Shown piece after piece: positions 24,001 through 42,800 of a stretch of 64,000 nucleotides of DNA (its first letter is position 1; every line of letters starts with the position of its first letter). Position numbers and translations under genes: made by a program. The notes under the pieces were generated by a model. It worked only from the letters and a program-made list of their open reading frames with translations, was not told the origin of the DNA and ran no database searches. The DNA comes from Amphiscolops sp. MND2022 (lineage: Eukaryota): positions 70,992,001 to 71,056,000 of the forward strand of contig OZ076409.1 in assembly GCA_964187785.1 (NCBI GenBank), written 5' to 3'.

Positions 24001-24845
24001 GTCCAGCTTATCTTTGCCATTTTTTCGAAAATGTACTCGCCTAAAGGCCTCCCCCTGGCCGAATTTACTCCCAGCAAAACCATTTGGCCCTAAATACGGA
24101 GTTTCAGCGTTCCAGCATTCCCGGGCGAAAAGTTCTGGGACTTGGAAAATTTTCAAAAATTTTCAAAATTTTTTTTTTTCGTTTTCCGGGCCCCCAATGA
24201 AGGGGAAACGACCCCCCAACCAGTATTTTGAGGTAATTCATGTGGAAAGCCCTTGTTTTGACGAGAAAAATACCGTTTAGAACATCTTTTTATCTTGACT
24301 CAACGTTGACTTATGACGTTTTGAATGTGATGTAAGGATGTAGGAGGCATGTGATAAGTTGATGTTTTGAGTCTTTATCTCATATGAAAGCGGTTGAGAT
24401 GCAAGCTGTCCTGCTCAAAACGTCTTTCGTTGTAATTTTCCAGTGCACCAATACCCTTTGGTGTCATATAAACATACTTTTTGTCGATATATTAACAATT
24501 TTAATGTATTTATTCCAATTTTTATTATCTTATAACTCAAAACAGTTGAGTACATTTCATCTCCCTTTCGGGGGAGATGAGAATGTACTCGCTAAAGACC
24601 TAGCGCCATGACCAAAAGTTTGAAACCCACGTTTTTTATCTTCTTACAGACTTGTTTTTGTATTTTTTCGGAATTTTTTAAAAATTAATATACTTGAAAT
24701 ACATTACTTGACTTTACTACTACAACCCACCTCCAACGACAACGCCCCCCTGCTTGCATCAACGCCCACCGTCCGTGGGCATGCCGAGGCATGCCCTTCG
24801 ACGACGTATGCCAAATGCCCAGTGCCACGCAGTCATTATCGCTAG
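21007..24845 (+). mobile_element. Three short units (1285, 1285, 1269 bp): H3+T2, H3-variant+T2, H5+T5
   Basis: Junction CTAGs end at 22291, 23576, 24845. Confidence 0.85.
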
Positions 24846-27427
24846 GTGCCGGGATTTCTATTCGTTCAAGGATGTTGCGCGTGTGGGTAGGGCCCCTGGC
24901 GCGCTCTTTTATTTCGGGTACACCTACTCCAAATTCACGATGTGATTTCGACGATCTCGTAAACTAGCCACACGATTTGGCTGAAATTTGGCACACAGCT
25001 CCGTTGGAACATTGTAAGAACAAATCCCTACTGACGTTTTGCCCGCTAAACATTTTTTGTTGGTCAAAAATGCGATTTTCCGACAAAATTTTTGACTTTT
25101 TTTTCTTTTTCAACTCATATCTCGCCACAGGGTTACGCTAGCGCTTTGCAACCTATGATCCTTTTTTGTAGGGCATTGCATGTAGAACACGTATGCCAAA
25201 TTTGGTGGCGATCGGACTTAAACTCAGGGAGATATAACAATTTTTTAGGTGCATTTTTTGACATTTTTTGCTTTTGCTGATTTATCTTTGCCGTTTTTTG
25301 CCCAGATTTTTTTTGAGACACTCTCCTAAAGACCTCCCCTGGCCGGTTTACCTCCCAGCAAAACCATTTGGCCCTAAATACGAAGTTTCAGCGTTCTAGC
25401 ATTCCCGGGCGAAAAGTTGTGGGACTTAGAATAATTTTTTGGAAACGCAAAATGTGTAAAGTCAACTTCAGGCCTCCCAAAGTCAGGGAACTTCCACACA
25501 ACTAGGATTGCAAGTGGATGCATGTGGAAAGTACTGGGATAGACGAGAAAAATGAGCTATAGAACGACTCTGTAGCTTAACTTGACGTTGACTTATGACA
25601 ATTTTAGTGTGAGCTTGCTAAGGGGTCCGAAAGTCAAAAATTGAAAATTGAGTTATTCCAAAGCAAATACTCCTTTATATAGGCTAATTAGGTATCAGTA
25701 ACGTGAAACACGGTCGTACGGAGCGATTATTATCATAGGCGATACGGTTCGTTCAAAAAAATGTCCAAAAATTTTTTCTCTTTTTTCGTAGGTTTTTTGT
25801 CTAGGATTTTTTTCTTTGGTTTTTTCCTTAGGTTATAGGTGTAGGTTATAGATTAGGCTTTTTCTAAGGTCCTGTTTTGCTTTCCCTGTTCACTGCATAG
25901 TTTGTTTTTAGTGGCAGAAGAAGACGACGACGACCAAGCATACGAGTTTTTCTTTTTTTTCCTTGGGTTTTCTTCGGGTTAATGGCTATCCCGAAACCAG
26001 GTGCTCCTGCTCGAGGGCTTCTCGGGCGCTGGTTTCGTGTATGGGGCTTTCCCCCCCCAGTAGGTAACCTCTGCCCAAATTTTCAAACGTCCCTCGTAAT
26101 TCGCATTTTGCCGGTGTCTTTTTTTTACGGGCGTTTCGTCGAAAAAGATAGAATTTTTCTCGGAACCGGCAAAATCGGAAAATCAATCACAAAATAAACG
26201 ACGTCGAGAAATCAATCAGACTTAACGGCGTCCAGTTGCTACAAAGAAGAAGTACAGATTAACCATGCTTCAGTTTCAGGTGCCAATCAATCAAGCTCAA
26301 GATGTCTTTTTTTGTAACTTATTAAATAGTCCATAAAATTATGGAAATTAGGAAAATTTTCAAAGGTTGGTTTTTTTTTGAAATTTAATGCAACTTATTA
26401 ACATATGTGCCAAAGCTTTTGAAAGCATTAGGAGAAATCAATATAAAGTAAACCAATATGCAGTTTAACTGTTCTAACTTCCTTCAGTTTTAGTTCACAG
26501 ATGAAGATTCGCCGTAGCGATACGTAACGTTTTTTATCTAAATCGAATTTGCGGAGACTCAATCTGCCTATCGTTCGCACGGTCGTTATTGAGCATAAAT
26601 TACGCTCATTGAAAAAGTGCGTGATCAGCGTCGTTCAATTTTTACGTGTAATTATCATAGGTGCCCATATGTTAAATTGTAAGAATAGAGGTAATGGGTT
26701 TTCAAAATCCGGCTCATCAGAAGTTAGCTTGCGGCGTTATGCTGAAGGCCCTTCTGATGATGCTATGTCCCCCCTTTTTTAGTGGGTAACCTATGCCCAA
26801 ATTTTTTTCCAGCAATTTTTCCCAGCATTTTTGTTTTTTGTGAGTCTTAACCAAAATAATTTCTGATACATATTTTTGATTAAATATTACTTCTTAAAGT
26901 AGCTTTTCATTGAATGGTTTTAATACAATCAGAATTGTTTTTCCTTGTAAAGTTTTTTTGTAATATGAGTTTGTAACTGATGTACATGAGAATGAATTCC
27001 ACCAATAAAAGACTCGAAACCTCTTGTACTGTATGTTTGATGTATGTTTATTTTATACTGAGAGTCAAGTAGGACATTACGTCTCTCGATCAAATCATAG
27101 ATTTTCTTCGCTCTTTTATTTCGTTAATTGCTATTTTCCAAGTGGAACCGCTTCACACATTTGATTTTGCAAAGAAACATTGAACAAAGGTATTGTTTTA
27201 GCATATTTAGAATCAAAATTGAATTTTTCACGTTTGAAAGATTATAAGATTTACAAGTTCTCTGATTTTATCCATCGTCTAAAACTTGATTGACTCGATT
27301 TTGGTAATTGTTCCAGTGGCGCTTCAACTATTAATTCGATTTCATTAGCCAATTCGGTTGATCCGTATCAAATTTTAGTCCCAATGAGATACTGAAATGT
27401 TCAATTTCGTTTCATATTTTCAGGGAT

Positions 27428-30400
27428 ATGCCTCCAAGGAGAAATCGGAGTGTTAGAAACAAGTGCTCCCGGTGCCGTGTGTTTATCCCTCAGTCTTCGA
27501 CTTTGTGTGCCAGTTGTGCATCTTCCTCCGCCGAGGTAACTCATGACAACGAAGACAGCAGCAGTGTTTCTATACCCAACGAAGACAACCCTCGGAACAT
27601 AGTTTACCCTCCTCGTTGTACATTATGTGGATTACATGAACAGTCACAAGGCCAACTTTGTTGTTTTTGCTGTCCTGTTACTTTACCCGTTTGTACAGAT
27701 GCAGAATGTCAAAAGTGCCGAAGAATTACCTGTTCATCACTGAATTCAATTTCTATGGCAGATGTAAAGCAGACCGCGTTTGGTTGCCGATTACCGGGAG
27801 AAACATCTGATTTTGCAAGACTGTGCAACGAGTGTACTCATTACGCAACACATGGCTTCCGATCGCCATGGAGGAATATTTGGCCATGCGTCGTTTTAGA
27901 TTTCCTCAGTGGTAAATATAATGGAATTGCTGATGGAAAACCATTCCATAAAGTGTTGCCTACTTCTATTTTGGAACAATATCAACATCTGTTGCAGTTT
28001 AACACTGATGAAAAAGAGACTGTTTTTGCTGACCTGACACACAAACTGCTGGAATTCAAAAGTTTAAAACAAAACCTCAACATTGAAGGAGTGCAGAAAG
28101 CCCATAACAAGTACAGTTTTCCAGAAGTTCGCTGTCCTTTTGGTTGTACTGAGTTCGTTGGCGACACGGGATTAATACCCTTGCAATACTTTCTTCTGAC
28201 GTTAGACAAAAACTTTGCTTTTAACGGAATGAAGTGGAAAAGGCGATTACGTTGTGTTCGACCAGATTGGTTGACCCCATACAATCACAATGATGCCTTC
28301 AACGTAAGACCACACATTGTTGTCGACGAGAAACAAGGACTGTGTCTTGCAACCTGTAAATTCCACAACGGGGGATCGCACCAGTTTTTCGTCCATCCAC
28401 CTACAAATCCCACTGGCAGATTACCCTCGAAAAATGCAGATCGTCTTGGTCCAGCTACAGTTAGTTATAACTGCTACAAACCAAGCAAGCCCAATTTTTC
28501 CACTCACACCTTTTCAATGGGTGTGGCTAAGGGTAATTTCTCCGGAATTAGTTCGACCACAATTGCCTGTAAGCGAAGGTGGGATATCGCATTTGGTGAA
28601 GATGACGTCGTAAGAGAGTCTCTTTGTTCAAACAAACGACAGGATATAAAACCGCTGTTACAAAAACTTGTGCACAAAGGAGAGTTATCACAGAATCTCT
28701 TTGATAGCATTACATCAATTGAAGGTTTGCCTGACGATCAAACAATTCTGGAATGTTTGAAGACTGCTACATCCGTCCCTTTGGAGTTAGCTCTTGCATT
28801 AAAGAAAATTCAAGAAGAAGGATTAAATGTAAACTATTTTCCGGTATTCTCCCATCCTTTCACAAAATACGGATGTGATCCACCTGACACAGTTGTAAAC
28901 CAGTCAATGCCGAAATATTTATGGATTTATGCTGTAATGTTTGCTTTGAGTTGCAACTTCCATTTGTCTCTTTTGAAATTCATTTCAACAGATAGTGCCT
29001 TCAAAAATGTGTTCCATTTTATGCTGATTAATGATGGTAGACTGGCTGATAAAAAGAAACGAGAACTTGCAGAGTTCCTTCAACGTTATTCACAAGATCC
29101 TAGTTATGACATGGTTGACAGTTTGGAACAATTGCTAACAAACATATCTTTCGTCAAACACTTCAATGTAACTGACAGAGAAAGTGTTGAATCAATTTTG
29201 AAATCTCTGACCGATGACAAAATTGTAACTTTCATTACCAATGCAAGGAGAAGAGACGATGGTTACTTGCCGGATAGAGTGGTAACTACGAATGGGTCAA
29301 CATCATACGAACTACGATCAATTGCTGTCACTGAGGGCGGTAACGTAAAAACACTCGTTAGACATGGTAATGAATATAATTGTTGGTGGATATACTCTAC
29401 AGCTCATGAGACTCCATCAAAAATGGGTCTTGAAGATCTGGTGGAGATGAACAAATTTCATTCTAGTTGGTTGTCCTGCCATTACGAGATCATTGGTTCA
29501 GTTGACATGCAGAGAGAAAAATACCAGTACTTGGAATATTTAGGAGGCCAAGGACGATTCATTTGTGACGATCATCATGTCCCTCTTACAGTAGCCAGAA
29601 AAAATACTCCGACTCTTTGTTCGTTCAGTACCAGCTGTCAGCGAAAACCCGCTTGGAATTGCCCGTCGGAGAACTGCTTGTCGTCAGTCTGCCGTACTCA
29701 TTTCGCACAACACCAGCTTAGCAATGAACGTTTCTTTGTCAAATGCCCCACTTCAAATTGTGACGTTGTTCCTCCACATTCTGCTGAATGTTGTGATGAT
29801 GATGTAGTTGTTTCTGAACCCGAATCAGACTACGATGAATTTTCTTTTACAAATTTCACAACCGACACTGGTCATGTTGAAAATATGACAAATTGTTGTG
29901 CTACTGATTCTGGAGACATGCCGTCAGTCGTTGACAGTGTTGACACATCAATTCCTGCCCATATTTTGCTAAACACTGATTGTCATGTACTAGAAAGGAA
30001 GAACTACAGAATTGACTGTTCCAAAACAAGTTCTCGATTTTTACAAAACATTGTCGCAAGATCATCTGGTAACTCCATCCCTCTCATTTACCCTGACGCA
30101 GCACTCTTCCCTACACATTATTATCATGAACAGACGGACAATACTATTACTGGCGCTGTTCCGGCTCCTCTCTTTTGTGATAAACAGAGCAAACACTTTC
30201 TCTTTGCAAGCATTGAGGATCATAAGCGATCAGCTGTTCTGAACCCAAATCTTTTGCAATCAACCGACGTTAGAAGTATTCAGACATCTTTCGACACCGT
30301 GCTGAATAAACGTCTCACTTTTTCCGATACACGTTTGGTTCTCAATCGAGGATTCCAAGAAGTGACTGTGAAGACTTCCAAATCAATAACTCCAACTAAT

Positions 30401-33400
30401 CCAAAACTTCAATTTGATCATGCTGATTCTAGAGTACGCGTAAATGAATTGGCCGCATTGTTGTCTAAAGAACCTGCTACATTTTTTCTGACACTCACTT
30501 GTAACCAGAAATATCACTTTGGGGTAGCACCAATTTTTGAAGCTATTGAAAATCGATTCAACAGAAATAATAAACAAGAGTACGAGAGAGCAGTTCAAGC
30601 TGAGATGGTGCTACTAACAAGAGCTTGGTATAGATCAGCTGAAGCTTTAATGGAATGGATCGAAAAATCTCCCGACCAACCACTTGGAACTGTCACCAAA
30701 ATTTGGTATCGCTATGAGTTCCAGTCTACCAAAGGGAACTTACCGCACATTCATTGCGTCATATGGACAAAAGAAAGCAAAGCTGAATTACAACACAAGG
30801 TTTCATGCTCTGGATCATCAGCTTTATTCGAATTGAAAAAAATAGCAGCTGAAACAAATGTAATTAATAGTGATCAAGTTTTCGATTTGTGGACTCAACT
30901 GATGACAATCCAAACTCACTCCTGCGAAAAGGCAAACTATCGCTGTCACAAAATTGTCAAAGACGACGGGTCAACAATATGCAGAGTTCCCCGTTACCCG
31001 CATTCAAACCGATATTCCTGGAGAAAAGTCCCATCAAGCCATTCGGAAGAAGCATTGCAAGTTCTTCATTACCTTGACTTGGCCACACCCTCGAAGTCTC
31101 ATGACGATACCTTCGAAGTTTCAGAGAGTCTTCAAGGAGGCAAATTCGAATACCCAGCTTCAAGTGACGAGCACCTTTCCCCTTTTAACCCACTTGTTTT
31201 CATCATTACGATGTCTTCGCAAAACCTTCAATTGTGTGACGAATACTTATCTGCAAGGTATATTGCAAAATATGCAGCAGGGATCGAAGAACGAGCTGAT
31301 GCACGTGTTGATCCGGTTTCCTTCAATGAAATTAGAATTCACACTAAAGGAATTAATAATTCGAAAATTTCCAGTTGCCGTATCAAAGAAAAAAGTACAG
31401 ATAGAAAAACAATTGTTCAGATAATTCCTCTCGTTGAAACTGTTTGGTGGTTATTGAGTTTCAAATATGTTCACAGTTCTGTTTCCTTCGTTCATTTATC
31501 GACTCTTGAAAAGTCAGAACGAACGTCTTTCATCACACCCAGAAAAAATACAAACCCAACCCAGCCGTTACCTTTACATGTTACAAAAAGTTTCACTTTA
31601 CCACTGTCGCGCCAATTCACCCAATCACAGTTGTTGGTTTTAAAAGATTCTATGACAAGTGAGCATTCTAACTGCAAAATGACAGTTTTTAGCGGTAGGC
31701 CACCAGCGCTTTTGTGTGTTGATAACCCTCAACTGTATTTCACTTGGTTCAACAGAGTTAATATTCGGCATCCCCAGGATACATTGAATCATGATGTTAA
31801 CAATTCAAAATGGATAGACCTTTTCGGACGTGCTGTACACTTGAGACGTTGCTATCTTGATGACTTTTCCACTTATGTCAACAATCTCAGAAGAGAGGGA
31901 CATATCAACTTGTACCGATTCGATGAAGATACATCGATTTTGTTTCTACAAAACGACTGTTTGGGATTGAAAACAATAGACGATTCTCCAGTTCAAGTTG
32001 TGACATCAAACATTGTGCCAAATAATCGTCGAAAATTTTTGGTGCACTTTGTTCTATCTAACGGGAAGTTTGAGACAGAACCAGATCTATTCAATCATCC
32101 TAGCATGATGGAGGTTTTCATCAACTGCAAGTTACTGCCATCAAAAAGTTCTTATACACAACAAGATGCCTGTGATTTAGTGAAATTTTACGTTTTGTCG
32201 GAACTCAAATACCTTCCTGGGGCAAGCAGATCGTTCGATCGTCATTTGTTATGTTGTTACGACTTGATGACCAATCTTGTTCTTCATAACCAGATTCATT
32301 GCGAAGCTTTGCCCTCAACTCTTCATTCAGAAATAACCGAAAACGCTGAAATTGATTACATCCTCCACAGTAACGAAAAACGAGAGCGAAGTGTTCAAGG
32401 TTGCCTCTTAAATCCAGCTTTGATGCCATTGCAACCACACAAAGATTCTTTCGTCGCAGCCACCCGCAGTAACCCGTTTGTGTACAGTTTTCCGTTTCCT
32501 CGAGCTCCCGGACAGTCGGACGAATCAAACACTTTTCAACAACGTGTGTTCAACGGGTGCATTCAGAAATTGACTAACTTTATTGAAACAAAAGACGGTT
32601 TCGTAAAACATCAATTGTTTTTGGGGCGTCCGGGAAGCGGCAAAACACTCATCTGCACAATGATATATCTGGAAGCTGTGGCGAAAGGTCTCAATTGTGC
32701 AGTAACTTGTCTAAGTGGAGAGCGAGCCCAACAACTCGGTGGCGAACATGTCCACAAACTATTCAAGTTCAGAGTAAACAAAATACAGAATCCCGAAATA
32801 ATGGCTTCCCAGAGTTTGAAAAGTCTTCTCAAGGATGTCACAAGGTTCACTGAGCTGGAACGCCTTGACGTACTTTTTATTGATGAAGTGGGCCAGCTGA
32901 ATTCTGAATTGATGATAGCTATGGAAATTGTTCTACAATCTGTACGAGAAAACAAACTGCCAATGGGAGGAATCTTCACAATCCTAACAGGAGATCCGAA
33001 GCAATTGCGCCCTCCACAAGGATCATTGACATGGTTGTCACCGAAGATGCTGACAAATTTTGATTTCCACTACTTTAAACACTATGTTCGAGCAAAGCCT
33101 GGATTGTTGCGACAGATACTGACTAAATTAGATGAACTTGATATCAGCCCAATCGAAGCATCAAATATTGCAAAGGAAATTGTAGCCAATTGTAATATCC
33201 ATTCAACTTGGGACAATGTTGGTGACAACTTTGACATGCGTGTTTTCAGCACACGAGCCGCTGAAAAACAGGCTGTTACACATCATTTTGAAAAAATTCT
33301 GGCTGACCAAAGTTGTGTAAATGTTGTGTTAACTGCTAATGATGAAGTGAGTTCTACTGGTGCATCAATTTGGCGTCCGGCAGGTGACATTGAACAAAAA

Positions 33401-34411
33401 ATCATCGATTCCACATCCATCACTCCCCGACAACTGCTCTTGTATAAGAAAGCGCTTCTCAGATTTACAGCCAACCTCCCCAACATTCAGGCTAGGCAAG
33501 GACAATTGTGCCTAATTTTGGAAATACCAACCGAAACAGCATCTTCTCTGGACGTTTGGATTGCACCACCAGGTTGCCGGACCGTCACAAATTTCGACGA
33601 AAATAACCTCATTACATCTGGTTGGCGCAAAGTCTCTATTTCAAAAGTGTTTACACCTATAATGACTAACAACAACAAATTCCTAAGGAGATACTCTTTC
33701 CCTCTCAAGAACTATGTGGCATCCACTATTCACAAATGCATTGGTGACACGTTCCCAAAGATTGTTACCAAAGTTTCACTTACGGACAAACATTACAAAA
33801 TTTGGGAAAAAGAGCAACTTCTTGTGTTGTTGAGTAGAGTCAGTAAGCTCGACGACATAACGTTCGTAGGTGAAGAACACGAAATAGAATTAACTTTAAC
33901 TGCTGCCATTCAGCAAAAGTCCTGCTGGGGAACTTTCATCAATAACCTTCTGGAAAAATTGGCCTGTACTCCCTCTGACCTGACGCCGCCAACACTCAAC
34001 CTCCTTTCTTCAAATATTGTACCTTGGAACATTGTCTTACCCGAAGACAATGTAGGCTTTGTGTATCTTCTGGTAAGCACGAAGATTCCGAATGTTTATT
34101 TCATTGGAGAGGCTCTGGAAATTCGGCGAGAATTGAAAGTTATCAACTCTGGAAATGGCGCATCCGAAACACGCCCAATCGAACGAAGGCCATGGGCAAT
34201 CTTAGCATTTGCAACAGGTTTCAACACCGAAGATTCTTCCAGCAACAATACGCAAAGAAAATCGCTTGTATCGAAGATGAGAACGCAATTTACTTCCCTT
34301 GGATTAAACTTCACCACCGTGGAATTGTTTGAAACGTTCAAAGAATCAACGAGAACATATGCTGACGAACGTGATCTAAATTTGAGAGTTATCCAGTGTG
34401 GCAGTGTTTAG
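27428..34411 (+). CDS. Helitron-like RepHel transposase (2327 aa): Cys-rich N-terminus, HUH Y2 Rep, Pif1-like SF1B helicase, C-terminal GIY-YIG-like domain
   Basis: Uninterrupted ORF. HUH motif 1 FFLTLTCN (~30482), motif 2 YEFQ..GNLPHIHCVIW (~30710-30765), motif 3 YIAKY (~31259-31273). Helicase motifs: Walker A GRPGSGKT (~32624), Walker B FIDEVGQ (~32876), GDPKQLRP, ASTIHKCIGDT, VLLSRV. Many CxxC pairs at the N-terminus. Confidence 0.93.
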   Translation: MPPRRNRSVRNKCSRCRVFIPQSSTLCASCASSSAEVTHDNEDSSSVSIPNEDNPRNIVYPPRCTLCGLHEQSQGQLCCFCCPVTLPVCTDAECQKCRRITCSSLNSISMADVKQTAFGCRLPGETSDFARLCNECTHYATHGFRSPWRNIWPCVVLDFLSGKYNGIADGKPFHKVLPTSILEQYQHLLQFNTDEKETVFADLTHKLLEFKSLKQNLNIEGVQKAHNKYSFPEVRCPFGCTEFVGDTGLIPLQYFLLTLDKNFAFNGMKWKRRLRCVRPDWLTPYNHNDAFNVRPHIVVDEKQGLCLATCKFHNGGSHQFFVHPPTNPTGRLPSKNADRLGPATVSYNCYKPSKPNFSTHTFSMGVAKGNFSGISSTTIACKRRWDIAFGEDDVVRESLCSNKRQDIKPLLQKLVHKGELSQNLFDSITSIEGLPDDQTILECLKTATSVPLELALALKKIQEEGLNVNYFPVFSHPFTKYGCDPPDTVVNQSMPKYLWIYAVMFALSCNFHLSLLKFISTDSAFKNVFHFMLINDGRLADKKKRELAEFLQRYSQDPSYDMVDSLEQLLTNISFVKHFNVTDRESVESILKSLTDDKIVTFITNARRRDDGYLPDRVVTTNGSTSYELRSIAVTEGGNVKTLVRHGNEYNCWWIYSTAHETPSKMGLEDLVEMNKFHSSWLSCHYEIIGSVDMQREKYQYLEYLGGQGRFICDDHHVPLTVARKNTPTLCSFSTSCQRKPAWNCPSENCLSSVCRTHFAQHQLSNERFFVKCPTSNCDVVPPHSAECCDDDVVVSEPESDYDEFSFTNFTTDTGHVENMTNCCATDSGDMPSVVDSVDTSIPAHILLNTDCHVLERKNYRIDCSKTSSRFLQNIVARSSGNSIPLIYPDAALFPTHYYHEQTDNTITGAVPAPLFCDKQSKHFLFASIEDHKRSAVLNPNLLQSTDVRSIQTSFDTVLNKRLTFSDTRLVLNRGFQEVTVKTSKSITPTNPKLQFDHADSRVRVNELAALLSKEPATFFLTLTCNQKYHFGVAPIFEAIENRFNRNNKQEYERAVQAEMVLLTRAWYRSAEALMEWIEKSPDQPLGTVTKIWYRYEFQSTKGNLPHIHCVIWTKESKAELQHKVSCSGSSALFELKKIAAETNVINSDQVFDLWTQLMTIQTHSCEKANYRCHKIVKDDGSTICRVPRYPHSNRYSWRKVPSSHSEEALQVLHYLDLATPSKSHDDTFEVSESLQGGKFEYPASSDEHLSPFNPLVFIITMSSQNLQLCDEYLSARYIAKYAAGIEERADARVDPVSFNEIRIHTKGINNSKISSCRIKEKSTDRKTIVQIIPLVETVWWLLSFKYVHSSVSFVHLSTLEKSERTSFITPRKNTNPTQPLPLHVTKSFTLPLSRQFTQSQLLVLKDSMTSEHSNCKMTVFSGRPPALLCVDNPQLYFTWFNRVNIRHPQDTLNHDVNNSKWIDLFGRAVHLRRCYLDDFSTYVNNLRREGHINLYRFDEDTSILFLQNDCLGLKTIDDSPVQVVTSNIVPNNRRKFLVHFVLSNGKFETEPDLFNHPSMMEVFINCKLLPSKSSYTQQDACDLVKFYVLSELKYLPGASRSFDRHLLCCYDLMTNLVLHNQIHCEALPSTLHSEITENAEIDYILHSNEKRERSVQGCLLNPALMPLQPHKDSFVAATRSNPFVYSFPFPRAPGQSDESNTFQQRVFNGCIQKLTNFIETKDGFVKHQLFLGRPGSGKTLICTMIYLEAVAKGLNCAVTCLSGERAQQLGGEHVHKLFKFRVNKIQNPEIMASQSLKSLLKDVTRFTELERLDVLFIDEVGQLNSELMIAMEIVLQSVRENKLPMGGIFTILTGDPKQLRPPQGSLTWLSPKMLTNFDFHYFKHYVRAKPGLLRQILTKLDELDISPIEASNIAKEIVANCNIHSTWDNVGDNFDMRVFSTRAAEKQAVTHHFEKILADQSCVNVVLTANDEVSSTGASIWRPAGDIEQKIIDSTSITPRQLLLYKKALLRFTANLPNIQARQGQLCLILEIPTETASSLDVWIAPPGCRTVTNFDENNLITSGWRKVSISKVFTPIMTNNNKFLRRYSFPLKNYVASTIHKCIGDTFPKIVTKVSLTDKHYKIWEKEQLLVLLSRVSKLDDITFVGEEHEIELTLTAAIQQKSCWGTFINNLLEKLACTPSDLTPPTLNLLSSNIVPWNIVLPEDNVGFVYLLVSTKIPNVYFIGEALEIRRELKVINSGNGASETRPIERRPWAILAFATGFNTEDSSSNNTQRKSLVSKMRTQFTSLGLNFTTVELFETFKESTRTYADERDLNLRVIQCGSV

Positions 34412-34480
34412 TTCATTTGGGTTTACAAATATTACACTGTAGAAGTCTCTGAGAATGGACGATAGATGAAGCATGTGAGG

Positions 34481-34511
34481 TTGCCCCGGCCACGCAGTGA
34501 GCCGAGGGCAA
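34481..34511 (+). other. GC-rich hairpin downstream of the RepHel stop codon
   Basis: TTGCCC-CGGC-CAC-gca-GTG-a-GCCG-a-GGGCAA in an AT-rich context. Confidence 0.7.
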
Positions 34512-34970
34512 GCTTTATTCAAACTATAGATGAACATCCTTTTTTGTTGAAAAGTTCTTTGATTATACTTTGCCTTTGCTCATTTTTTCAACGTTCCTTT
34601 GTAAATATATACTGATAAAATTGTCACCCGTTGATAATATTACCAGTTGACACTGAAGTTGACACCAGTCAAGAAAAAAAATAATTATCTGACTGGAACA
34701 AAAAAAGACAAAAAAACAAGATGGCAAGATTGTTGAAACAGTTCAATTCTTCAACTTCGATAATCTTTTCCTTAACATATTTTTACCATCACGTGGAGGG
34801 AAATAGAAAAACATTTCTACAGTTAATTAGTTCGAAAGAGAAAAATTAGACAGTATTTAGACGCAGTAGTGATGTTGTACATCGAAAGAAATGAAAATGT
34901 GTCGAGAAACATAACTTTATTGTGTTTTTAGATAGCTTTGTCTTCAATCGAGACTGAAACAAGATTCAAA

Positions 34971-35892
34971 ATGCCCATCATTAATAAAGATTTGTCGGCA
35001 GATGAGGCAGCCACCAGAACAATCAGTAAATTAACAACGTGTGAACTCGATGAAGTGATGGAATCTAATGCAACGGATCGGAAGTACATGATTTGTACAT
35101 TGCTTTACGCCAAAAAATGTGTGAAATCAGTATCGTATTTTAAACTAACGAATGGACAAAAGCAAAAACAGGAGGCTACATTTAACCGTTTTGTCCTTCT
35201 GGGAGTGATCGGAAAAGAGAAAGTAATGGCAATATTTACCTACACCCAACTAGAAAGCGCGGAGTTGTTGCGTTACTGTTCTGCATTACAACCAGGAAAT
35301 GCGTGCGCCTTAATACGCCCTAAATTCGATAACAAGTATATGGGATCATCATCCACTACCCCAATCATACTAACTTCTGAGCCACTTGTGCCTCTGAACA
35401 TCAAGAATTACCCTGATGTCAGCTGTCCAAGAATTGTATCATCACCGGACTTTCAACATTTCTACATGAAAACGAAAGATTTGAAGCTCGATAATATAGA
35501 TGCCATTGGAAACGTGTGCAATGGGACCTTCTGCGATGGTCAACCGAAGGGCGACTGTCCTTGTTTAGAGGTCGACAACCGGAAAAGCAGCTGGATCATT
35601 ACTGCGGATGTGAAATGCAGTGGATTGTATCACTCATCAAAAATACGATCAAAACGATTGATAACGGTATTCGCTCCCAAATGTAAGTCGGCGGACCCTA
35701 ACAAAAGAGAATTTGATGTCCTTGATTTGGGCGATTGTATTGAAAACTGTGTTGAAGCAGTAAATGCCAAGAATGGATGGGAAATTTTCGGTTGGGTGAA
35801 ACCAAACGAATCTGCTCTAGAGTTTACAAACTATGAATGCGACCTACACATTATACATCTTCAACCTATCGAAATTACAGATGTAGAGTCAG
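34971..35892 (+). CDS. Second element gene, exon 1 (possible RPA-like OB-fold/zinc ssDNA-binding protein)
   Basis: Lies in ORF 34938-35948; first ATG at 34971 (caaaATG). Cys cluster CNGTFC-x7-CPC in a beta-rich sequence. Phase-1 donor G|GTAAAC at 35892/35893, after which the sequence becomes AT-rich and intron-like. Product assignment is inference only. Confidence 0.65.
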
Positions 35893-36182
35893 GTAAACCT
35901 AAACTTCAAATATTTATTTTTCCAGTTTTTACTTTCTTTTTTCGCTAAAGTTCTAAATAATTTTCGACCAAAATATGTCTAGCAGAATCAAAATATACAT
36001 TTTAACACAATCTCAAACACAACGTTTAGTGTTATTAACAATTGTTTTCGCAAAAGACATGAACATTAATTTCACCTTGAACTATTATTTTACAACTTGA
36101 GACTAAAACTTACAGTCTTTCTTTTTTTCCCAACGTTATTTTTAAGATGACCGATAATTGACAAATGATAAATATACTTCAG

Positions 36183-36361
36183 ATGCATACAAAGCCTTGC
36201 AGTATAAGTTGCCCGAAACATCTGCCCCAGAAGTCGAAATGCCCGTCATAGCAACTACATCAGGAACAGCTTCGGTTCCAGCAACAGCTCCAGCAACAGC
36301 TCCAGAAACAGCTCCAGCAACAGCTCCACCAGATGAACAAGCAGCTTCGGTTGAAAGATGA
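36183..36361 (+). CDS. Second element gene, predicted exon 2 (Pro/Ala/Thr-rich tail)
   Basis: Acceptor TTCAG|AT at 36182/36183 joins the phase-1 donor in frame with ORF 36158-36361 (..VES|DAYKALQY..), giving 366 aa in total. AATAAA at 36593-36598. Confidence 0.55.
36278..36325 (+). repeat. 12-bp coding tandem repeat (CCAGCAACAGCT)x4, encoding PATA/PETA
   Basis: Read directly; one copy has a single substitution. Confidence 0.85.
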
Positions 36362-36894
36362 AAATCGCATTATCAACTACGAAAAATGCAGAAATCAAGA
36401 GAAGTGACAATGAGCAAAAAACATTTATAGATTTAAAAATCTCGAAACATTTTGATTCAATAATGTTATAATGTGATCATAAAAAGATTGCAGAAAAAAT
36501 AATCTTGAAACCGGTAAAAGATTATAAATATCGTATTGTTATGTTCCTTTAGTTCATATTCTTGAAATAATGTTAATTTCTTATTTTCAAGAAATAAAAA
36601 TTCACTTTTTCGTTCCCACAAGAAACTTGAATAGAGTGTTCATAGAAAAAATACGTATGTTCATAGACTAGTCAATATTTTCAATACAAATATCTGAACT
36701 AGTCAAAATACTAATCTTTTCTTTGCTTTCACTCTGGTATGACATTTGCTAAACGTTTGGTCCTTACAACATACACATGACTAACGTCAACGCCACATAC
36801 TGTTACCAACGCCCACCGTCCGTAGGCATGCCGAGGCATGCCTTTCGACGACGTATGCCAAATACCATAAAACCGACGCGCACTCTCCCGCTAG

Positions 36895-39800
36895 GTGCCG
36901 GGATTTCTATTCGATAAAGTATGTGGCGCGCCTTGGGTAGGGTCCCTTGCGCGCTTTTGGGTATGGTGTTCACCAGCTAGGAAATAGGGGTCGATTTTTC
37001 GGGATCTCCTAAACTAGCCACACGATTTGGCTGAAATTTGGCACACGTACTCCCCTCGGCACGGTGAAGATGATTTCCTACTGACGTTTTTCCCGCAAAA
37101 TTTTTTTTGTTGTCCAAAATAACCGTTTTTGGGGGAAAATTTTGAACTTTTTTCAAATTTCATCTTATATCTCGCCACCGGTTTACGCTAGCGCTTCAAA
37201 ACCCTGCTAAAGAAAGCTTGCAAACTGTCTCAGGAATGCGGTGTGAAATTTTCAGCTCAATCGGACTCAAACTCAGGGAGATATAGCGTTTTTCCGGAGC
37301 GGGGGGGTTTCATTTTTCTAACGGTCCAGCTTATCTTAGCCATTTTTTCGAAAATGTACTTCGCCTAAAGACCTCCCCTGGCCGGTTTTATTCCCAGCAA
37401 AACCATTTGGCCCTAAATACGGAGTTTCAGCGTTCCAGCATTCCCGGGCGAAAAGTTGTGGGACTTAGAAAAGTTCAAAAATTTTCAAAAAAAATTTTTT
37501 CCGTTTTCCGCCCTCCCCCCCTAGGGGAAAAGACCCCCCAACCAGTAATTTGAGTGAATTCATGTGGAAAGGCCATGTTTAGAGGAGAAAAATGCCGTTT
37601 AGATTGTCTTTTTATCTTTATTCAACGTTGACTTATGACGTTTCGAAGGTGATGTTTGGAGGTGTGAAGCACGTGAAAAGTAAACGTTATGAGTATTTAT
37701 CTGATCTGAAAGCCAATGAGATGCAACCTGTTTTGCTCAAAACGTAATTCATATCAGTTTGGTAGTCAATCAACACCCTTTGTTGTCATTTGACATCTTT
37801 TTTTGTTGATATAAGAAAAAATTTCGTGTATTTATTCATTTTTTTCTCATCAAATAACTTGAAACAGTTGAGTACATTCCATCCCCCCTTCACGGGGGAG
37901 ATGAGAATGTACTCGCAAAAAGCCCCGAACTACGGCCCTTACCTTCCTGAGCTACGCAGTATAAAGATTGCATATTGGTTCCGACATTTTGATAGAGTTA
38001 TATCTTGGTAATCTGTCTGGGTATGCAGAAAAATCAGCACGTGCTTTTTTATACCAAGTTGCTCACAACGACGTTTATTTTATATCAACGCCCCCATATT
38101 TATCAACGCCCCCCGTCCGTGGGCATGCCGAGGCATGCCCTTCGACGACGTATACCAAGATATGTTCGAGCGCGTTAGCCTAGGTGCCGGGATTTCCATT
38201 CGATAAGGAATTCTGCGCGTGTGGGTAGGGCCCCTGGCGCGCTCCTGTGTTTTCGGTTTTCCTACTCCTAAATAGACCCCCTGAATTCCGGGATCTCCTA
38301 AACTATCCATACGATTTGGCTGAAATTTGGCACACGTACCCCCCTCGGCACGGTGAAGATGATTTCCTACTGACGTTTTTCCCGCTAAACATTTTTTGTT
38401 GACCAAAATAACGGTTTTTGGGGTAAAATTTTGAACTTTTTTTAAATTTCATCTTATATCTCGCCACGGGTACACGCTAGCGCTTCCAAACCTTGCTGAC
38501 GAAAGTTTGCAAACTGTCTCAGGAATGCTGTGTGAAATTTTCAGCTCAATCGGACTTAAACTCGAGGAGATATAGCGTTTTCCCGGAGCGGGGGGGTTTC
38601 AATTTTCTAACGGTCCAGCTTATCTTTGCCATTTTTTCGAAAATGCACTCGCCTAAAGGCCTCCCCTGGCCGGTTTTATTCCCAACAAAACCATTTGGCC
38701 CTAAATACGGAGTTTCAGCGTTCCAGCATTCCCGGGCGAAAAGTTGTGGGACTTAGAAAAGTTCAAAAATTTTCAAAAAAAATTTTTTCCGTTATTTGGG
38801 CCCTCAAAGTGGGGGAAAAGACCCCCCAACCAGTAAAGCAAGTGAATGCATGTGGAAAGCCCTTGTTTAGACGAGAAAAATGCCGTCTAGAACGTCTTTT
38901 TATCTTAACTTGACATTGACTTTTGTCGTTTTGAAGGTGACCGTTAGATACGGAAAATTGATGTTTTGAGTATTTATCCCATCTGAAAGCCATTGAGATA
39001 CAACATGTTTTGCTCAAAACGTGTTTCATTGCAGTTTCGCTGTCCATTATTACCCTTTGGTGTCTTTTCACGTAATTTTCGTTTCTATAATAACAATTTT
39101 TTTGTGTATTTATTCATTTTATTCTCATCAAATAACTTGAAACAGTTGAGTACATTCCATCTCCCTTCCCGGGGGAGATGAGAATGTACTCGCTAAAGGT
39201 CAGGAACTACGGTCTATATCTTCCACAACACAAATGGGATTGCAAATGGTTTCAGTTTGTCGCAGAAAACTTCTTTTTGCCCTCTGTGACTCGACAAAAT
39301 GAACGTTTCTTACTTACTTTGAAACTCAGCATACCACAACTCATCTCTAACGTCAGCGCCCCCCTACTTGCATCAACGCCCACCGTCCGTGGGCATGCCG
39401 AGGCATGCCCTTCGACGACGTATACCAAGATATACCTGGAGCGCGGTAGCCGCTAGGTGCCGGTGTTTTTTTACACAAAGGGGGATGTTGCGCGTGTGGG
39501 GAGGGTCCCTGACGCGCTCCCGGGATTTCGGATTTTTTAACCTTTACGTACCCATCAAAAATTTTGGGATCTCGAAAACTAGCCGTACGATTTGGCTGAA
39601 ATTTGGCACACGTACCCCCCTCGGCACGGTGAAGATGATTCCCTACTGACGTTTTGCTCGCTAAACATTTTTTGTTGACCAAAATAACGGTTTTTGGGGT
39701 AAAATTTTCAACTTTTTTTAAATTTCATCTTATAACTCGCCACGGGTACACGCTAGCGCTTCCAAACCTTGCTGACGAAAGTTTGCAAACTGTCTCAGGA

Positions 39801-42800
39801 ATGCTGTGTGAAATTTTCAGCTCAATCGGACTTAAACTCGAGGAGATATAGCGGTTTTCCGGAGCGGGGGGGTTTCATTTTTCTAACGGTCCAGCTTATC
39901 TTTGCCAATTTTTCGAAAATGCACTCGCCTAAAGGCCTCCCCTGGCCGGTTTTATTCCCAGCAAAACCATTTGGCCCTAAATACGGAGTTTCAGCGTTCC
40001 AGCATTCCCGGGCGAAAAGTTGTGGGACTTAGAAAAGTTCAAAAATTTTCAAAAAAAATTTTTCCGTTATTTGGGCCCCCAAAGTGGGGGAAAAGACCCC
40101 CCAACCAGTGAAGCAAGTGAATGCATGTGCAAAGCCCTTGTTTAGAGGAGAAAAATGCCGTTTAGAACGTTTTTTTATCTTGGCTCAACGTTGACTTATG
40201 ACGTTTTGAAGGTGATGTTTGGAGGTGTAAAGCACGTGAATAGTAAACGTTATGAGTATTTATCTGATCTGAAAGCCATTGAGATGCAATATGGTTTGCT
40301 CAAAACGTAATTCATGGCAGTTTGGCAATCAATCAACACCCTTTGTTGTCGTTTGACATACTTTTTTGTTGTTATAATAAAAAAATTTTGTGTATTTATT
40401 CATTTTTTTCTCATCAATTAACTTGAAACAGTTGAGTACATTCCATCCCCCCTTTCCGGGGGAGATGAGAATGTACTCGCAAAAAGCACCGAACTACGGC
40501 CCTTACCTTCCCGAGCTACGCAGTATAAGGATTACATATTGGTTCCGACATTTTCATAGAGTTAAATCTTGGTAATCTGTCTGGATATGCAGAAAAATCA
40601 GCACGTGCCTTTTAATACCAAGTTGCTTACAACGACAATTATTTTATATCAACGCCCCCATATTTATCAACGCCCCCCGTCCGTGGGCATGCCGAGGCAT
40701 GCCCTTCGACGACGTATACCAAGATATGCGTTAACGCGTTAGCCTAGGTGCCGGGATTACTATTCGTTCGAGTATGTGGCGCGTGTGGGTAGGGCCCCTG
40801 GCGCGCTCTTTTATTTCGGGTACACCTACTCCAAATTCACGATGTGATTTCGACGATCTCGTAAACTAGCCACACGATTTGGCTGAAATTTGGCACACGT
40901 ACCCCCCTCGGCACGGTGAAGATGATTCCCTACTGACGTTTTTCCCGCTAAACATTTTTTGTTGACCAAAATAACGGTTTTTGGGGTAAAATTTTCAACT
41001 TTTTTTAAATTTTATCTTATATCTCGCCACGGGTACACGCTAGCGCTTCCAAACTTTGCTGACGAAAGTTTGCAAACTGTCTCAGGAATGCTGTGTGAAA
41101 TTTTCAGCTCAATCGGACTTCAACTCGAGGAGATATAGCGTTTTTCCGGAGCGGGGGGGTGTCATTTTTCTAACGGTCCAGCTTATCTTTGCCATTTTTT
41201 CAAAAATGCACTCGCCTAAAGGCCTCCCCTGGCCGGTTTTATTCCCAGCAAAACCATTTGGCCCTAAATACGGAGTTTCAGCGTTCCAGCATTCCTGGGC
41301 GAAAAGTTGTGGGACTTAGAAAAGTTCAAAAATTTTCAAAAAATTTTTTTTCCGTTATTTGGGCCCTCAAAGTGGGGGAAAAGACCCCCCAACCAGTAAA
41401 GCAAGTGAATGCATGTGGAAAGCCCTTGTTTAGACGAGAAAAATGCCGTTTAGAACGTCTTTTTATCTTAACTTGACATTGACTTTTGTCGCTTTGAAGG
41501 TGACCGTTAGATACGGAAAATTGATGTTTTGAGTATTTATCCCATCTGAAAGCCATTGAGATACAACATGTTTTGCTCAAAACGTGTTTCATTGCAGTTT
41601 CGCTGTCCATTATCACCCTTTGGTGTCTTTTCACGTAATTTTCGTTTCTATAATAACAATTTTTTTGTGTATTTATTCATTTTTTTCTCATCAAATAACT
41701 TGAAACAGTTGAGTACATTCCATCTCCCTTCCCGGGGGAGATGAGAATGTACTCGCTAAAGGTCAGGAACTACGGACTATATCTTCCACAACACAAAAGG
41801 GATTGCAAATGGTTTCAGTTTGTCGCAGAAAACTTCTTTTTGCCCTCTGTGACTCGACAAAATGAACGTTTCTTACTTACTTTGAAACTCAGCATACCAC
41901 AACTCATCTCTAACGTCAGCGCCCCCCTACTTGCATCAACGCCCACCGTCCGTGGGCATGCCGAGGCATGCCCTTCGACGACGTATACCAAGATATACCT
42001 GGAGCGCGGTAGCCGCTAGGTGCCGGGATTTCTATTCGTTCGAGTATGTGGCGCGTGTGGGTAGGGCCCCTGGCGCGCTCTTTTATTTCGGGTACACCTA
42101 CTCCAAATTCACGATGTGATTTCGACGATCTCGTAAACTAGCCACACGATTTGGCTGAAATTTGGCACACGTACCCCCCTCGGCACGGTGAAGATGATTC
42201 CCTACTGACGTTTTTCCCGCTAAACATTTTTTGTTGACCAAAATAACGGTTTTTGGGGTAAATTTTTGAACTTTTTTTAAATTTCATCTTATATCTCGCC
42301 ACGAGTACACGCTAGCGCTTCCAAACCTTGCTGACGAAAGTTTGCAAACTGTCTCAGGAATGCTGTGTGAAATTTTCAGCTCAATCGGACTTAAACTCGA
42401 GGAGATATAGCGTTTTTCCGGAGCGGGGGGGTTTCATTTTTCTAACGGTCCAGCTTATCTTTGCCATTTTTTCGAAAATGCACTCGCCTAAAGGCCTCCC
42501 CTGGCCGGTTTTATTCCCAGCAAAACCATTTGGCCCTAAATACGGAGTTTCAGCGTTCCAGCAATCCCGGGCGAAAAGTTGTGGGACTTAGAAAATTTCA
42601 AAAATTTTCAAAAAATTTTTTTCCGTTAATTGGGCCCCCAAAGTGGGGGAAAAGACCCCCCAACCAGTAAAGCAAGTGAATGCATGTGCAAAGCCCTTGT
42701 TTAGAGGAGAAAAATGCCGTTTAGAACGTCTTTTTATCTTGGCTCAACGTTGACTTATGACCTTTTGAAGGTGATGTTTGGAGGTGTAAAGCACGTGAAT

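What the first reader, a model, noticed from the sequence alone, without database searches (positions are those of the whole stretch)
34052..34411. SLX1-type GIY-YIG-like domain fused to the RepHel C-terminus, possibly catalytically altered
Seen: VGFVYLLVS..NVYFIGEA..IRRELKVINSGNGASET....RPWAILAFATGF. Known: this follows the SLX1-family pattern (VYLL...YVG.T....RR..QHN.G...GA..T....PW......GF); Helentrons typically carry an apurinic-type endonuclease in this position. The QHN His reads VIN here and I cannot place the catalytic Glu. Inference: a branched or hairpin DNA-binding or resolving module that could support junction-targeted integration.
Basis: partly seen in the sequence, partly recalled or inferred. 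Interest (0 to 1): 0.72.

Follow-up and report, generated by a model that had tools for sequence, protein, structure and literature searches.

The report
Dead SLX1-type nuclease on Helitron transposase
A giant rolling-circle transposon enzyme ends in a DNA-cutting domain related to the repair nuclease SLX1 that has lost its cutting residues but is still conserved, and the element sits in a long chain of its own relatives joined at one exact sequence, which hints at a transposon that inserts into its own ends.

Summary
The last ~120 residues of an uninterrupted 2,327-aa Rep-Pif1 helicase ORF (27428-34411) form an SLX1/HIGLE-type GIY-YIG domain (family profile to Slx1 E 2e-14; model Z 10-11). 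The fusion marks a large Helitron-like clade: 111 of the 141 scorable relatives among the best 150 hits keep all five catalytic residues. Rep HUH/Y2 and helicase motifs are intact. All 12 scorable members of its 90% cluster share the dead site, yet the domain varies no more than Rep, so it looks like a retained pseudo-nuclease. Loss recurs across the clade, and some sister lineages truncate the domain. The element is one 12-kb unit among 36 head-to-tail units of several subfamilies, joined at CTAG|GTG in nearly shuffled order. Best reading: Rep inserts circles into existing junctions and the dead domain is a non-catalytic appendage; nothing shows that it does the targeting. It is not a Helentron. 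New variant of a known kind.

The parts
24846..36894 (+). Autonomous Helitron-like unit, 12,049 bp, from GTG to CTAG (exact nick inside the CTAGGTG core not fixed)
   Evidence: interior unique in the window, first ~770 and last ~130 bp shared with the other units
27428..34411 (+). Uninterrupted ORF, 2,327 aa: Cys-rich N-terminus, HUH/Y2 Rep, Pif1-type helicase, GIY-YIG-like tail
30746..30754 (+). Rep HUH motif H1107-I-H1109, intact
   Evidence: both His in 36 of 36 full-length relatives
31259..31273 (+). Rep Y2 motif Y1278-x-x-K-Y1282, intact
   Evidence: Tyr in 36 of 36 and 35 of 36 relatives
32624..32887 (+). Helicase Walker A (K1739) to Walker B (D1819-E1820), intact
   Evidence: Pfam PIF1 E 1.3e-8; K and E in 36 of 36 relatives
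34040..34408 (+). SLX1/HIGLE-type GIY-YIG domain (aa 2205-2327), pseudo-nuclease; no RING domain follows
34064..34066 (+). First motif Tyr (Y2213), kept
34100..34102 (+). Second motif Tyr replaced by Phe (F2225)
   Evidence: Tyr in 84% of aligned relatives; codon
34130..34132 (+). Catalytic Arg replaced by Glu (E2235; column of Cg-Slx1 Arg36)
   Evidence: Arg in 82%; register
34142..34144 (+). Conserved His replaced by Ile (I2239)
   Evidence: His in 87%
34268..34270 (+). Metal-binding Glu replaced by Val (V2281; column of Cg-Slx1 Glu79)
   Evidence: Glu in 83%; gap-free match to closest relatives
34938..35948 (+). ORF2, ~320 aa, probable OB-fold single-strand DNA binding protein (weak support); possibly spliced near 35893
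   Evidence: ESM Atlas features POT1/CTC1-like, recognition 1765, under the 2300 mark; homologues beside distant RepHel-GIY genes in 4 of 19 loci
24877..24904 (+). 5' subterminal stem-loop around a GG(G/T)AGGG(C/T)CC core; stem letters differ between subfamilies
   Evidence: folding z-scores not significant
36824..36843 (+). 3' subterminal hairpin, present in all 37 unit ends
   Evidence: closing pair A-T instead of G-C in 4 of 37
36891..36897 (+). Downstream junction CTAG|GTG
24842..24848 (+). Upstream junction CTAG|GTG
874..63359 (+). Head-to-tail array of 36 complete units: 27 of 1.27-1.29 kb, 8 of 1.97-1.99 kb, 1 autonomous; it runs off both window ends

Best explanation
The tail is an SLX1-type GIY-YIG domain that is ancestral to a large clade of giant Helitron-like transposases. 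In most members it is an intact structure-specific nuclease that probably trims flaps or branched intermediates during rolling-circle transposition (inferred from homology). In this family it is a pseudo-nuclease: the active site is gone (shown by sequence) and the fold is still held by selection (shown at protein level only), most likely as a non-catalytic cap on the helicase end that may keep some DNA contact. Transposition is run by the intact HUH/Y2 Rep and the Pif1 helicase. They excise single units as circles with a CTAG|GTG junction, and Rep joins such a circle into an existing junction of the array, which is its own cleavage sequence (inferred). That route needs no second nuclease, so cutting activity could be lost.
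For: Fold and family. Intact site in 111 of 141 scorable relatives. Four of five catalytic columns are replaced here and in all 12 scorable members of the 13-member 90% cluster. Arg to Glu and His to Ile each need at least two base changes, and sister families show part-way states, so the loss is old and not a sequencing error. Among 9 distinct full-length copies the domain has 22 of 127 variable sites, against Rep 106 of 640 (p 0.80), helicase 62 of 500 (p 0.15) and N-terminus 281 of 840 (p 0.0002). Rep and helicase motifs are intact. Two cluster members on contigs of other lengths differ by only 4 and 6 of 2,327 residues, which fits recent copying with a dead domain. Array: 37 of 37 junctions read CTRG|GTG; unit heads predict their own tails (adjusted MI 0.46-0.84, 0 of 5,000 permutations) but hardly the preceding tail (-0.01 to 0.10); linkage is 0.51 across the 57-nt conserved hairpin block and 0.16 across the 7-nt core. 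Helraiser cleaves its own plus-strand junction precisely in vitro (PMC5876387, passages).
Against: There are no synonymous-site data, so constraint rests on amino-acid counts among kin that may exchange sequence. The domain evolves somewhat faster on pairs that include this copy (1.46-1.88 times the helicase distance, against 1.31-1.83 among intact or one-change relatives). Sister lineages end inside the domain (P0003, P0153, P0173, the P0005 group) and some members of dead families lack it (P0202, P0203), so it is not essential. Intact sister families exist in the same close clade (P0169, P0002), so loss is not shown to follow array life. The near-identical copies may be alleles or other assemblies of one species. 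Unit order is not fully random (p 0.0055; 2-kb units form runs). The model was built from mostly intact homologues and does not show that the dead domain folds. No empty site, circle or transcript was seen.
Confidence: 0.55

Rival explanations
1. The dead domain is an active target selector: it still binds branched or hairpin DNA and steers Rep to the hairpin-flanked junctions of resident units.
For: Junctions are flanked by conserved hairpins on both sides. The columns of the Cg-Slx1 DNA contacts Arg35 and Arg38 keep basic residues, R2234 and K2237. The domain is as constrained as Rep. 19 of 33 altered copies share a contig length with another copy against 0 of 6 intact ones (Fisher p 0.02; contigs matched by length only, copies are kin).
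Against: Arg to Glu puts a negative charge in the phosphate pocket. The domain's net charge is 0 (15 K+R, 15 D+E) against +1 to +5 in six sister proteins. The Gln39 and His80 columns are not kept. Truncated lineages also sit on shared contigs (P0173).
Confidence: 0.17
2. The domain is a vestige in slow decay: its function lapsed or is supplied in trans by intact sister families or by host SLX1, and it persists only because little time has passed or because frayed ends destabilise the protein.
For: At least 14 state changes on the helicase tree (FastTree, many weak forks) and at least two origins of the dead state within the close clade (AU p 0.014). Several truncations. A GIY-YIG accessory nuclease helps but is not essential in the Tsy transposon (PMC10293859, passages).
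Against: No stop or frameshift in the domain in 12 of 12 cluster members, whose N-termini differ from this copy by up to 139 of ~840 residues. Variable sites are half as dense as in the N-terminus. Structural residues persist in dead rows: Asn 31 of 32, Pro 31 of 32, Phe 30 of 32 (biased, since hits were chosen by similarity).
Confidence: 0.18
3. The domain reading stands, but the array comes from rolling-circle concatemers of single units later mixed by homologous recombination, not from insertion into junctions.
For: Tandem Helitron arrays are attributed to rolling-circle replication in the literature (PMC5876387 and PMC5148889, passages). Runs of like units occur, and some units are chimeric.
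Against: Type switches fall mostly in a 7-nt core, while linkage holds across a 57-nt near-identical block 44-59 nt away, which recombination should prefer. Neighbouring units are often of different subfamilies.
Confidence: 0.2
4. The domain still cuts, with E2235 standing in for the lost metal-binding Glu.
For: Arg to Glu or Asp recurs in 11 of 32 dead rows. Migration of catalytic residues occurs in some pseudoenzymes (PMC10211241, start of the abstract in the search listing only).
Against: The second Tyr, the His and the Arg are also gone, and the rows with an acidic residue here share no other replacement.
Confidence: 0.04

Closest known systems
Helentrons (HLE2 with AP endonuclease; Thomas et al. 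2014, PMC4067079, passages)
   Same: A second nuclease domain is fused in frame to the helicase C-terminus; a separate RPA-like ORF; non-autonomous partners.
   Different: The nuclease is GIY-YIG, not Exo_endo_phos. No DUF6570, no asymmetric terminal inverted repeats, no T|T flanks; 3' end is CTAG; the nuclease is dead in this family.
Canonical Helitrons (HLE1; Helraiser, PDB 7lcc; PMC5876387, passages)
   Same: HUH/Y2 Rep plus Pif1 helicase; 3' hairpin and CTRR end; OB-fold-like gene downstream; precise end-to-end junctions without target duplication.
   Different: 5' end reads GTG, not TC. The hairpin lies 44-59 nt before CTAG. The protein does not hit Helraiser by phmmer at E up to 1, and the family helicase profile hits it only at E 4.5e-4, below bacterial Pif1. 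It carries a GIY-YIG tail.
HelenSM92 of Sphagnum magellanicum (HELIANO, PMC11417382; passages, section 22, legend of Fig. S8)
   Same: The one published Helitron-like family I found with a GIY-YIG domain.
   Different: Described as HLE2 with terminal inverted repeats and TT sites and treated as a single capture. Whether its GIY-YIG is in the RepHel frame or related to this clade could not be seen, because the figure is an image.
SLX1 / At-HIGLE structure-specific endonucleases (PDB 4xlg, 6seh, 7cq2, 7wme; PMC4407285, passages)
   Same: Nearest solved fold and sequence profile; the RPW, GF and FE..W motifs in the intact relatives.
   Different: No RING domain; fused to a transposase; 4 of 5 catalytic columns are lost in this copy.
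proto-Helentron of Phytophthora (PMC4067079, passages)
   Same: Non-TC 5' end with a 3' CTAG.
   Different: It starts with TT, carries DUF6570 according to HELIANO, and has no C-terminal nuclease.

Membership tests
GIY-YIG superfamily, SLX1/HIGLE type | GIY-YIG fold with SLX1-type motifs | tested here: met
   profile E 1.8e-14; Foldseek ranks 1-11; Z 10.0-10.8, rmsd 2.6-2.9, 104-108 aligned
GIY-YIG superfamily, SLX1/HIGLE type | Catalytic Tyr, Tyr, Arg, His, Glu | tested here: not met
   reads Y, F, E, I, V; met in 111 of 141 scorable relatives. Arg36 and Glu79 are named as active-site residues in PMC4407285; the roles of the two Tyr and the His are recalled.
SLX1 proper | C-terminal RING domain | tested here: not met
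   the ORF ends 46 residues after the Glu column
GIY-YIG superfamily, SLX1/HIGLE type | Binding or cleavage of branched DNA | not testable with these tools
   needs biochemistry
Helitron-like elements (all) | HUH/Y2 Rep upstream of a Pif1 helicase in one protein | tested here: met
   Pfam Helitron_like_N E 4.9e-8 and PIF1 E 1.3e-8; motifs intact
Helitron-like elements (all) | Non-autonomous partners sharing both ends; no target duplication | tested here: met
   35 short units share the ends and abut directly; no host flank was available
HLE1 | 3' hairpin and CTRR | tested here: met
   37 of 37 ends; spacing 44-59 nt, longer than the usual 10-15 nt (recalled)
HLE1 | 5' TC | tested here: not met
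   GTG follows CTRG in 37 of 37 junctions
HLE1 | Insertion between A and T | not testable with these tools
   no host flank or empty site in the window; no genome held
Helentron / HLE2 | C-terminal AP endonuclease | tested here: not met
   no Exo_endo_phos hit in this protein, in 11 relatives, 18 relatives or 3 loci; the position holds a GIY-YIG domain
Helentron / HLE2 | DUF6570 marker domain (HELIANO) | tested here: inconclusive
   not listed for any of the 33 RepHel proteins scanned; Pfam Rep models hit this clade weakly, so absence is soft
Helentron / HLE2 | Asymmetric terminal inverted repeats | tested here: not met
   longest inverted match between the first 150 and last 200 nt is 8 nt and internal
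HLE1 or HLE2 | Placement in a RepHel phylogeny with named references | not tested

The most novel reading that the evidence does not exclude
An unnamed branch of giant Helitron-like transposons carries an SLX1-type nuclease for inserting at dispersed sites. Some lineages switched to inserting into their own end junctions, built large mixed arrays, and repeatedly turned the nuclease into a non-cutting reader of branched or hairpin DNA that selects the target, a eukaryotic protein counterpart of pseudo-nuclease target selectors. A 7-nt junction with its hairpins would then be a portable landing pad for 12-kb cargo.
Probability: 0.15. Interest if true: 0.85.

Novelty: new variant of a known kind. 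Interest (0 to 1): 0.58.

Why it matters
The role of the extra nuclease on some Helitrons (the AP endonuclease of Helentrons) has only been hypothesised (PMC4067079). This clade gives an independent parallel with a different nuclease fold, and a natural series within one close group: intact (P0169, P0002), one residue lost (P0168, P0172), three lost (P0170, P0171), four lost (this family) and truncated (P0003, P0173). That series makes the question directly testable. The mixed array with exact CTAG|GTG switches also bears on how Helitron circles choose targets. If junction insertion is real, it is a sequence-specific integrase for large cargo without target duplication. The fusion itself is already in six earlier notes of this scan; what this window adds is the conserved dead state and the array.

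Tried and rejected
No genome is held, so empty sites and copy number could not be examined. No sequencing run was listed. A metagenome scan with the window's own protein found no relative among 206 candidates; a narrower family alignment found 19 loci and none among 38 viral candidates. Prokaryotic genome contigs were not scanned. The 3' hairpin pattern has no exact match in viral contigs. Do relatives form arrays? None of 8 loci compared with themselves showed unit-length tandem copies, and 1 of 8 (L007) had a GC-rich hairpin downstream of the ORF; downstream flanks were only 1.6-7.7 kb, so this is inconclusive. ORF2 folded alone failed (pLDDT 31), and it has no Pfam or PDB hit. Complex prediction of ORF2 with the GIY-YIG domain gave no verdict. 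W2284M was dropped as a sign of inactivation because intact close relatives also lack the Trp. The 14-16 departures from consensus in Rep and helicase were dropped as signs of decay because P0003 has as many and the motif blocks match. Decay of this single copy was rejected because the whole cluster shares the state. Literature searches that found no description of the clade or of a dead GIY-YIG on a Helitron. The library lacks most subscription papers and Repbase reports, and Fig. S8 of PMC11417382 is an image that I could not see.
Full report
Observation. Pfam places Helitron_like_N at 1001-1112 and PIF1 at 1729-1862. The last 136 residues alone reach GIY-YIG at 15.7 bits, E 0.019, under the curated cut-off, and PDB 1ywl at E 0.035. 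With relatives the signal is clear. A profile of 64 sequences hits four Slx1 sequences and At-HIGLE first, at E 1.8e-14 to 3e-11, ahead of the bacterial UPF0213 proteins. The AlphaFold2 model (pLDDT 91.5, pTM 0.84) matches Slx1 or HIGLE in Foldseek ranks 1-11, and VIA-align gives Z 10.8, 10.7 and 10.0 with the next chain at 6.6. The model rests on an alignment of mostly intact homologues.

The fusion is a clade feature. A phmmer search with the last 386 residues found 738 cluster representatives at E up to 0.001; the best 150 were returned. Of these, 141 cover all five catalytic columns: 111 read Y, Y, R, H, E, 3 have one change and 27 have two or more; 9 are incomplete. Pfam GIY-YIG passes its cut-off in 8 of 11 and 16 of 18 long relatives; the five that fail are all altered at the active site. 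All 36 relatives of 1,900 aa or more keep both HUH His, Walker A Lys and Walker B Glu. No AP endonuclease or DUF6570 was listed for any of 33 RepHel proteins scanned. The window's protein does not hit Helraiser (7lcc) at E up to 1. Nearly all relatives come unnamed from assemblies, so I cannot give a host range; earlier scan notes name Perkinsus, which I did not check.

The active site here is gone. Against the family consensus and the Slx1 alignment, this copy reads Y2213 (kept), F2225 (Tyr), A2229 (Thr), E2235 (Arg), I2239 (His), N2240 (kept) and V2281 (Glu). The Glu column is V2281 in the gap-free match to the closest relatives; an automatic full-length alignment put it at R2277, and neither is acidic. 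In Cg-Slx1, E79Q alone abolishes cleavage, and Arg36 is an active-site residue (PMC4407285, passages). The roles of the Tyr and His residues are recalled knowledge of the family. Rep and helicase motifs of this copy are intact, and its departures from consensus there (14 of 85, 16 of 75) are matched by its relative P0003 (16 of 85, 17 of 75).

The dead state is fixed and the domain is conserved. The 90% cluster of this protein has 13 members; 12 reach the domain and all 12 have A2229, E2235 and I2239, with F (11) or C (1) at 2225 and V (11) or L (1) at 2281. One is identical to the window's protein and two differ by 4 and 6 residues. Using 9 distinct full-length copies (three near-identical and two partial members left out), variable sites are 22 of 127 in the domain, 106 of 640 in Rep (p 0.80), 62 of 500 in the helicase (p 0.15) and 281 of 840 in the N-terminus (p 0.0002). 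This is protein-level evidence among kin; no synonymous rates were available. Against an essential role: P0003, P0153 and P0173 stop before the Glu helix, the P0005 group stops earlier, and P0202 and P0203 lack the domain. Distances in the domain relative to the helicase are slightly higher for pairs that include this copy (1.46-1.88) than among intact or one-change relatives (1.31-1.83).

Loss is stepwise and repeated. Close families (about 60% identical) show intact sites (P0169, P0002), Arg lost only (P0168, P0172), Tyr, Arg and His lost (P0170, P0171) and the four losses seen here. On a helicase-only FastTree of 155 rows (10 of 165 dropped for short coverage; 114 intact, 29 dead, 12 unscored) the state changes at least 14 times (many weak forks, no shuffled control, and some dead rows may be pseudogenes). 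On a 15-row Rep+helicase IQ-TREE, holding this family together with P0170 and P0171 is rejected (AU p 0.014). In 32 dead rows, structural residues persist (Asn 31, Pro 31, Phe 30, Gly 30), and Arg becomes Glu or Asp in 11 (rows were selected by similarity, which favours this pattern).

Setting. The whole window is a head-to-tail array. A hairpin occurs 37 times, all on one strand, and 44-59 nt after each comes CTAG|GTG (36) or CTGG|GTG (1); all 36 plus-strand CTAGGTG of the window are junctions. This gives 36 complete units: 27 of 1.27-1.29 kb, 8 of 1.97-1.99 kb and one of 12,049 bp (24846-36894) that holds the ORF and ORF2. Unit heads predict their own tails (adjusted mutual information 0.46-0.84; 0 of 5,000 permutations) but hardly the tail before them (-0.01, 0.08, 0.10; p 0.55, 0.09, 0.04). 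Sequence type stays linked across the 57-nt near-identical hairpin block (rho 0.51) and is mostly broken across the 7-nt core (rho 0.16, p 0.0055). So units are coherent, are exchanged at the core, and are only partly clustered by type. The ends are HLE1-like at 3' (hairpin, CTRR), non-canonical at 5' (GTG), and lack HLE2 inverted repeats. ORF2 has weak OB-fold features and has homologues beside distant RepHel-GIY genes in 4 of 19 metagenome loci, so it is a clade partner.

Mechanism. Shown: fold, dead site, intact Rep and helicase, family-wide fixation, array anatomy. From known biology: Helraiser forms circles with a precise end junction and cleaves that junction on the plus strand in vitro (PMC5876387, passages). 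Inferred: each array junction is the same substrate as a circle junction, so Rep can nick both and join an incoming unit there. This gives same-strand, exact, mixed arrays without a second nuclease. The ancestral SLX1-type nuclease probably trims flaps or branches at dispersed insertions and became dispensable. I put this at 0.55. The main rivals are a non-cutting target selector (0.17), slow decay or supply in trans (0.18), array mixing by recombination (0.2, which concerns the array and not the domain) and residual activity (0.04). One lead links loss to clustering: 19 of 33 altered copies share a contig length with another copy, against 0 of 6 intact ones (p 0.02). Contigs were matched by length only and the copies are kin, so this is weak. 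Whether distant intact relatives form arrays stayed open.

What is known. Helentrons carry an AP endonuclease at this position, with a hypothesised role in target nicking (PMC4067079, passages). HELIANO reports a captured GIY-YIG in one Sphagnum HLE2 family, HelenSM92, and does not list GIY-YIG among the domains named in its section on recurrent captures (PMC11417382: passages, section 22 and the Fig. S8 legend; the figure and Table S11 were not seen). Tandem Helitrons and self-insertions are described (PMC5148889, PMC5876387, passages). A third Helitron clade with telomere targeting is described in Paramecium (PMC13085455, passages). An accessory GIY-YIG helps but is not essential in Tsy (PMC10293859, passages). 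Passages of PMC9977147, PMC6431247, PMC3627910 and 10.64898/2026.09.17.752431 mention GIY-YIG without tying it to a RepHel. Searches found no account of this clade or of a dead GIY-YIG on a Helitron; Repbase and most subscription papers are outside the library. Six earlier notes of this scan report the fusion in other genomes, mostly as intact, and one reports mixed head-to-tail Helitrons at CTAG|TC; these are unchecked leads.

Verdict. Real feature; first reading partly right; new variant of a known kind; interest 0.58. The clade appears undescribed in the papers I could search but has been seen before in this scan. The new points are the conserved pseudo-nuclease, its graded series of relatives and the junction-exchanged array.

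Noticed in passing
window 874-63359: The whole window is a mixed head-to-tail array of 36 Helitron-like units of several subfamilies, exchanged at a 7-nt CTAG|GTG core; it may deserve study on its own as a self-targeting array or satellite.
   Followed up: partly
window 34938-35948: ORF2 has no Pfam or PDB hit, weak POT1/CTC1-like features and a conserved C-x-G-x-x-C-D...C-x-C motif; homologues accompany distant RepHel-GIY genes on either strand (L002, L003, L004, L007).
   Followed up: partly
window 35893-36146: Possible intron at the end of ORF2 (GT at 35893, AG at 36145), followed by a short Ala/Pro/Thr-rich frame with a 12-bp repeat at 36277-36328.
   Followed up: no
window hairpins at 8046, 36825, 59303, 63283: The closing pair of the 3' hairpin is A-T in these 4 of 37 copies and G-C in the rest, a compensatory change.
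   Followed up: no
window 24877-24904 and equivalents: A 5' subterminal stem surrounds a conserved GG(G/T)AGGG(C/T)CC core with different stem letters in different subfamilies; 3 of 9 pairs show a two-sided change in 8 copies, though folding z-scores are not significant.
   Followed up: partly
window 27428-29950 (aa 1-840): Long Cys/His-rich N-terminus with conserved Cys clusters in distant relatives and no Pfam family; it is the most variable part among copies of the family (33% variable sites).
   Followed up: no
L007:10351-10376: A distant relative with an intact-scoring GIY-YIG has the same order (RepHel-GIY, ORF2 homologue, GC-rich hairpin) with a CTAA about 50 nt later; no tandem unit follows in the 4 kb held.
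   Followed up: partly
proteins P0167-P0209 (contig lengths): Up to six autonomous copies from three families share one contig length, suggesting that arrays hold several autonomous families.
   Followed up: partly
protein P0043: A clade member carries an N-terminal OTU protease domain (E 7e-9) together with an altered GIY-YIG site.
   Followed up: no
L016 and L017:1842-2002: A second Rep fragment lies about 3 kb upstream of the intact RepHel-GIY gene, 84% identical to part of it, suggesting a decayed neighbouring copy.
   Followed up: no
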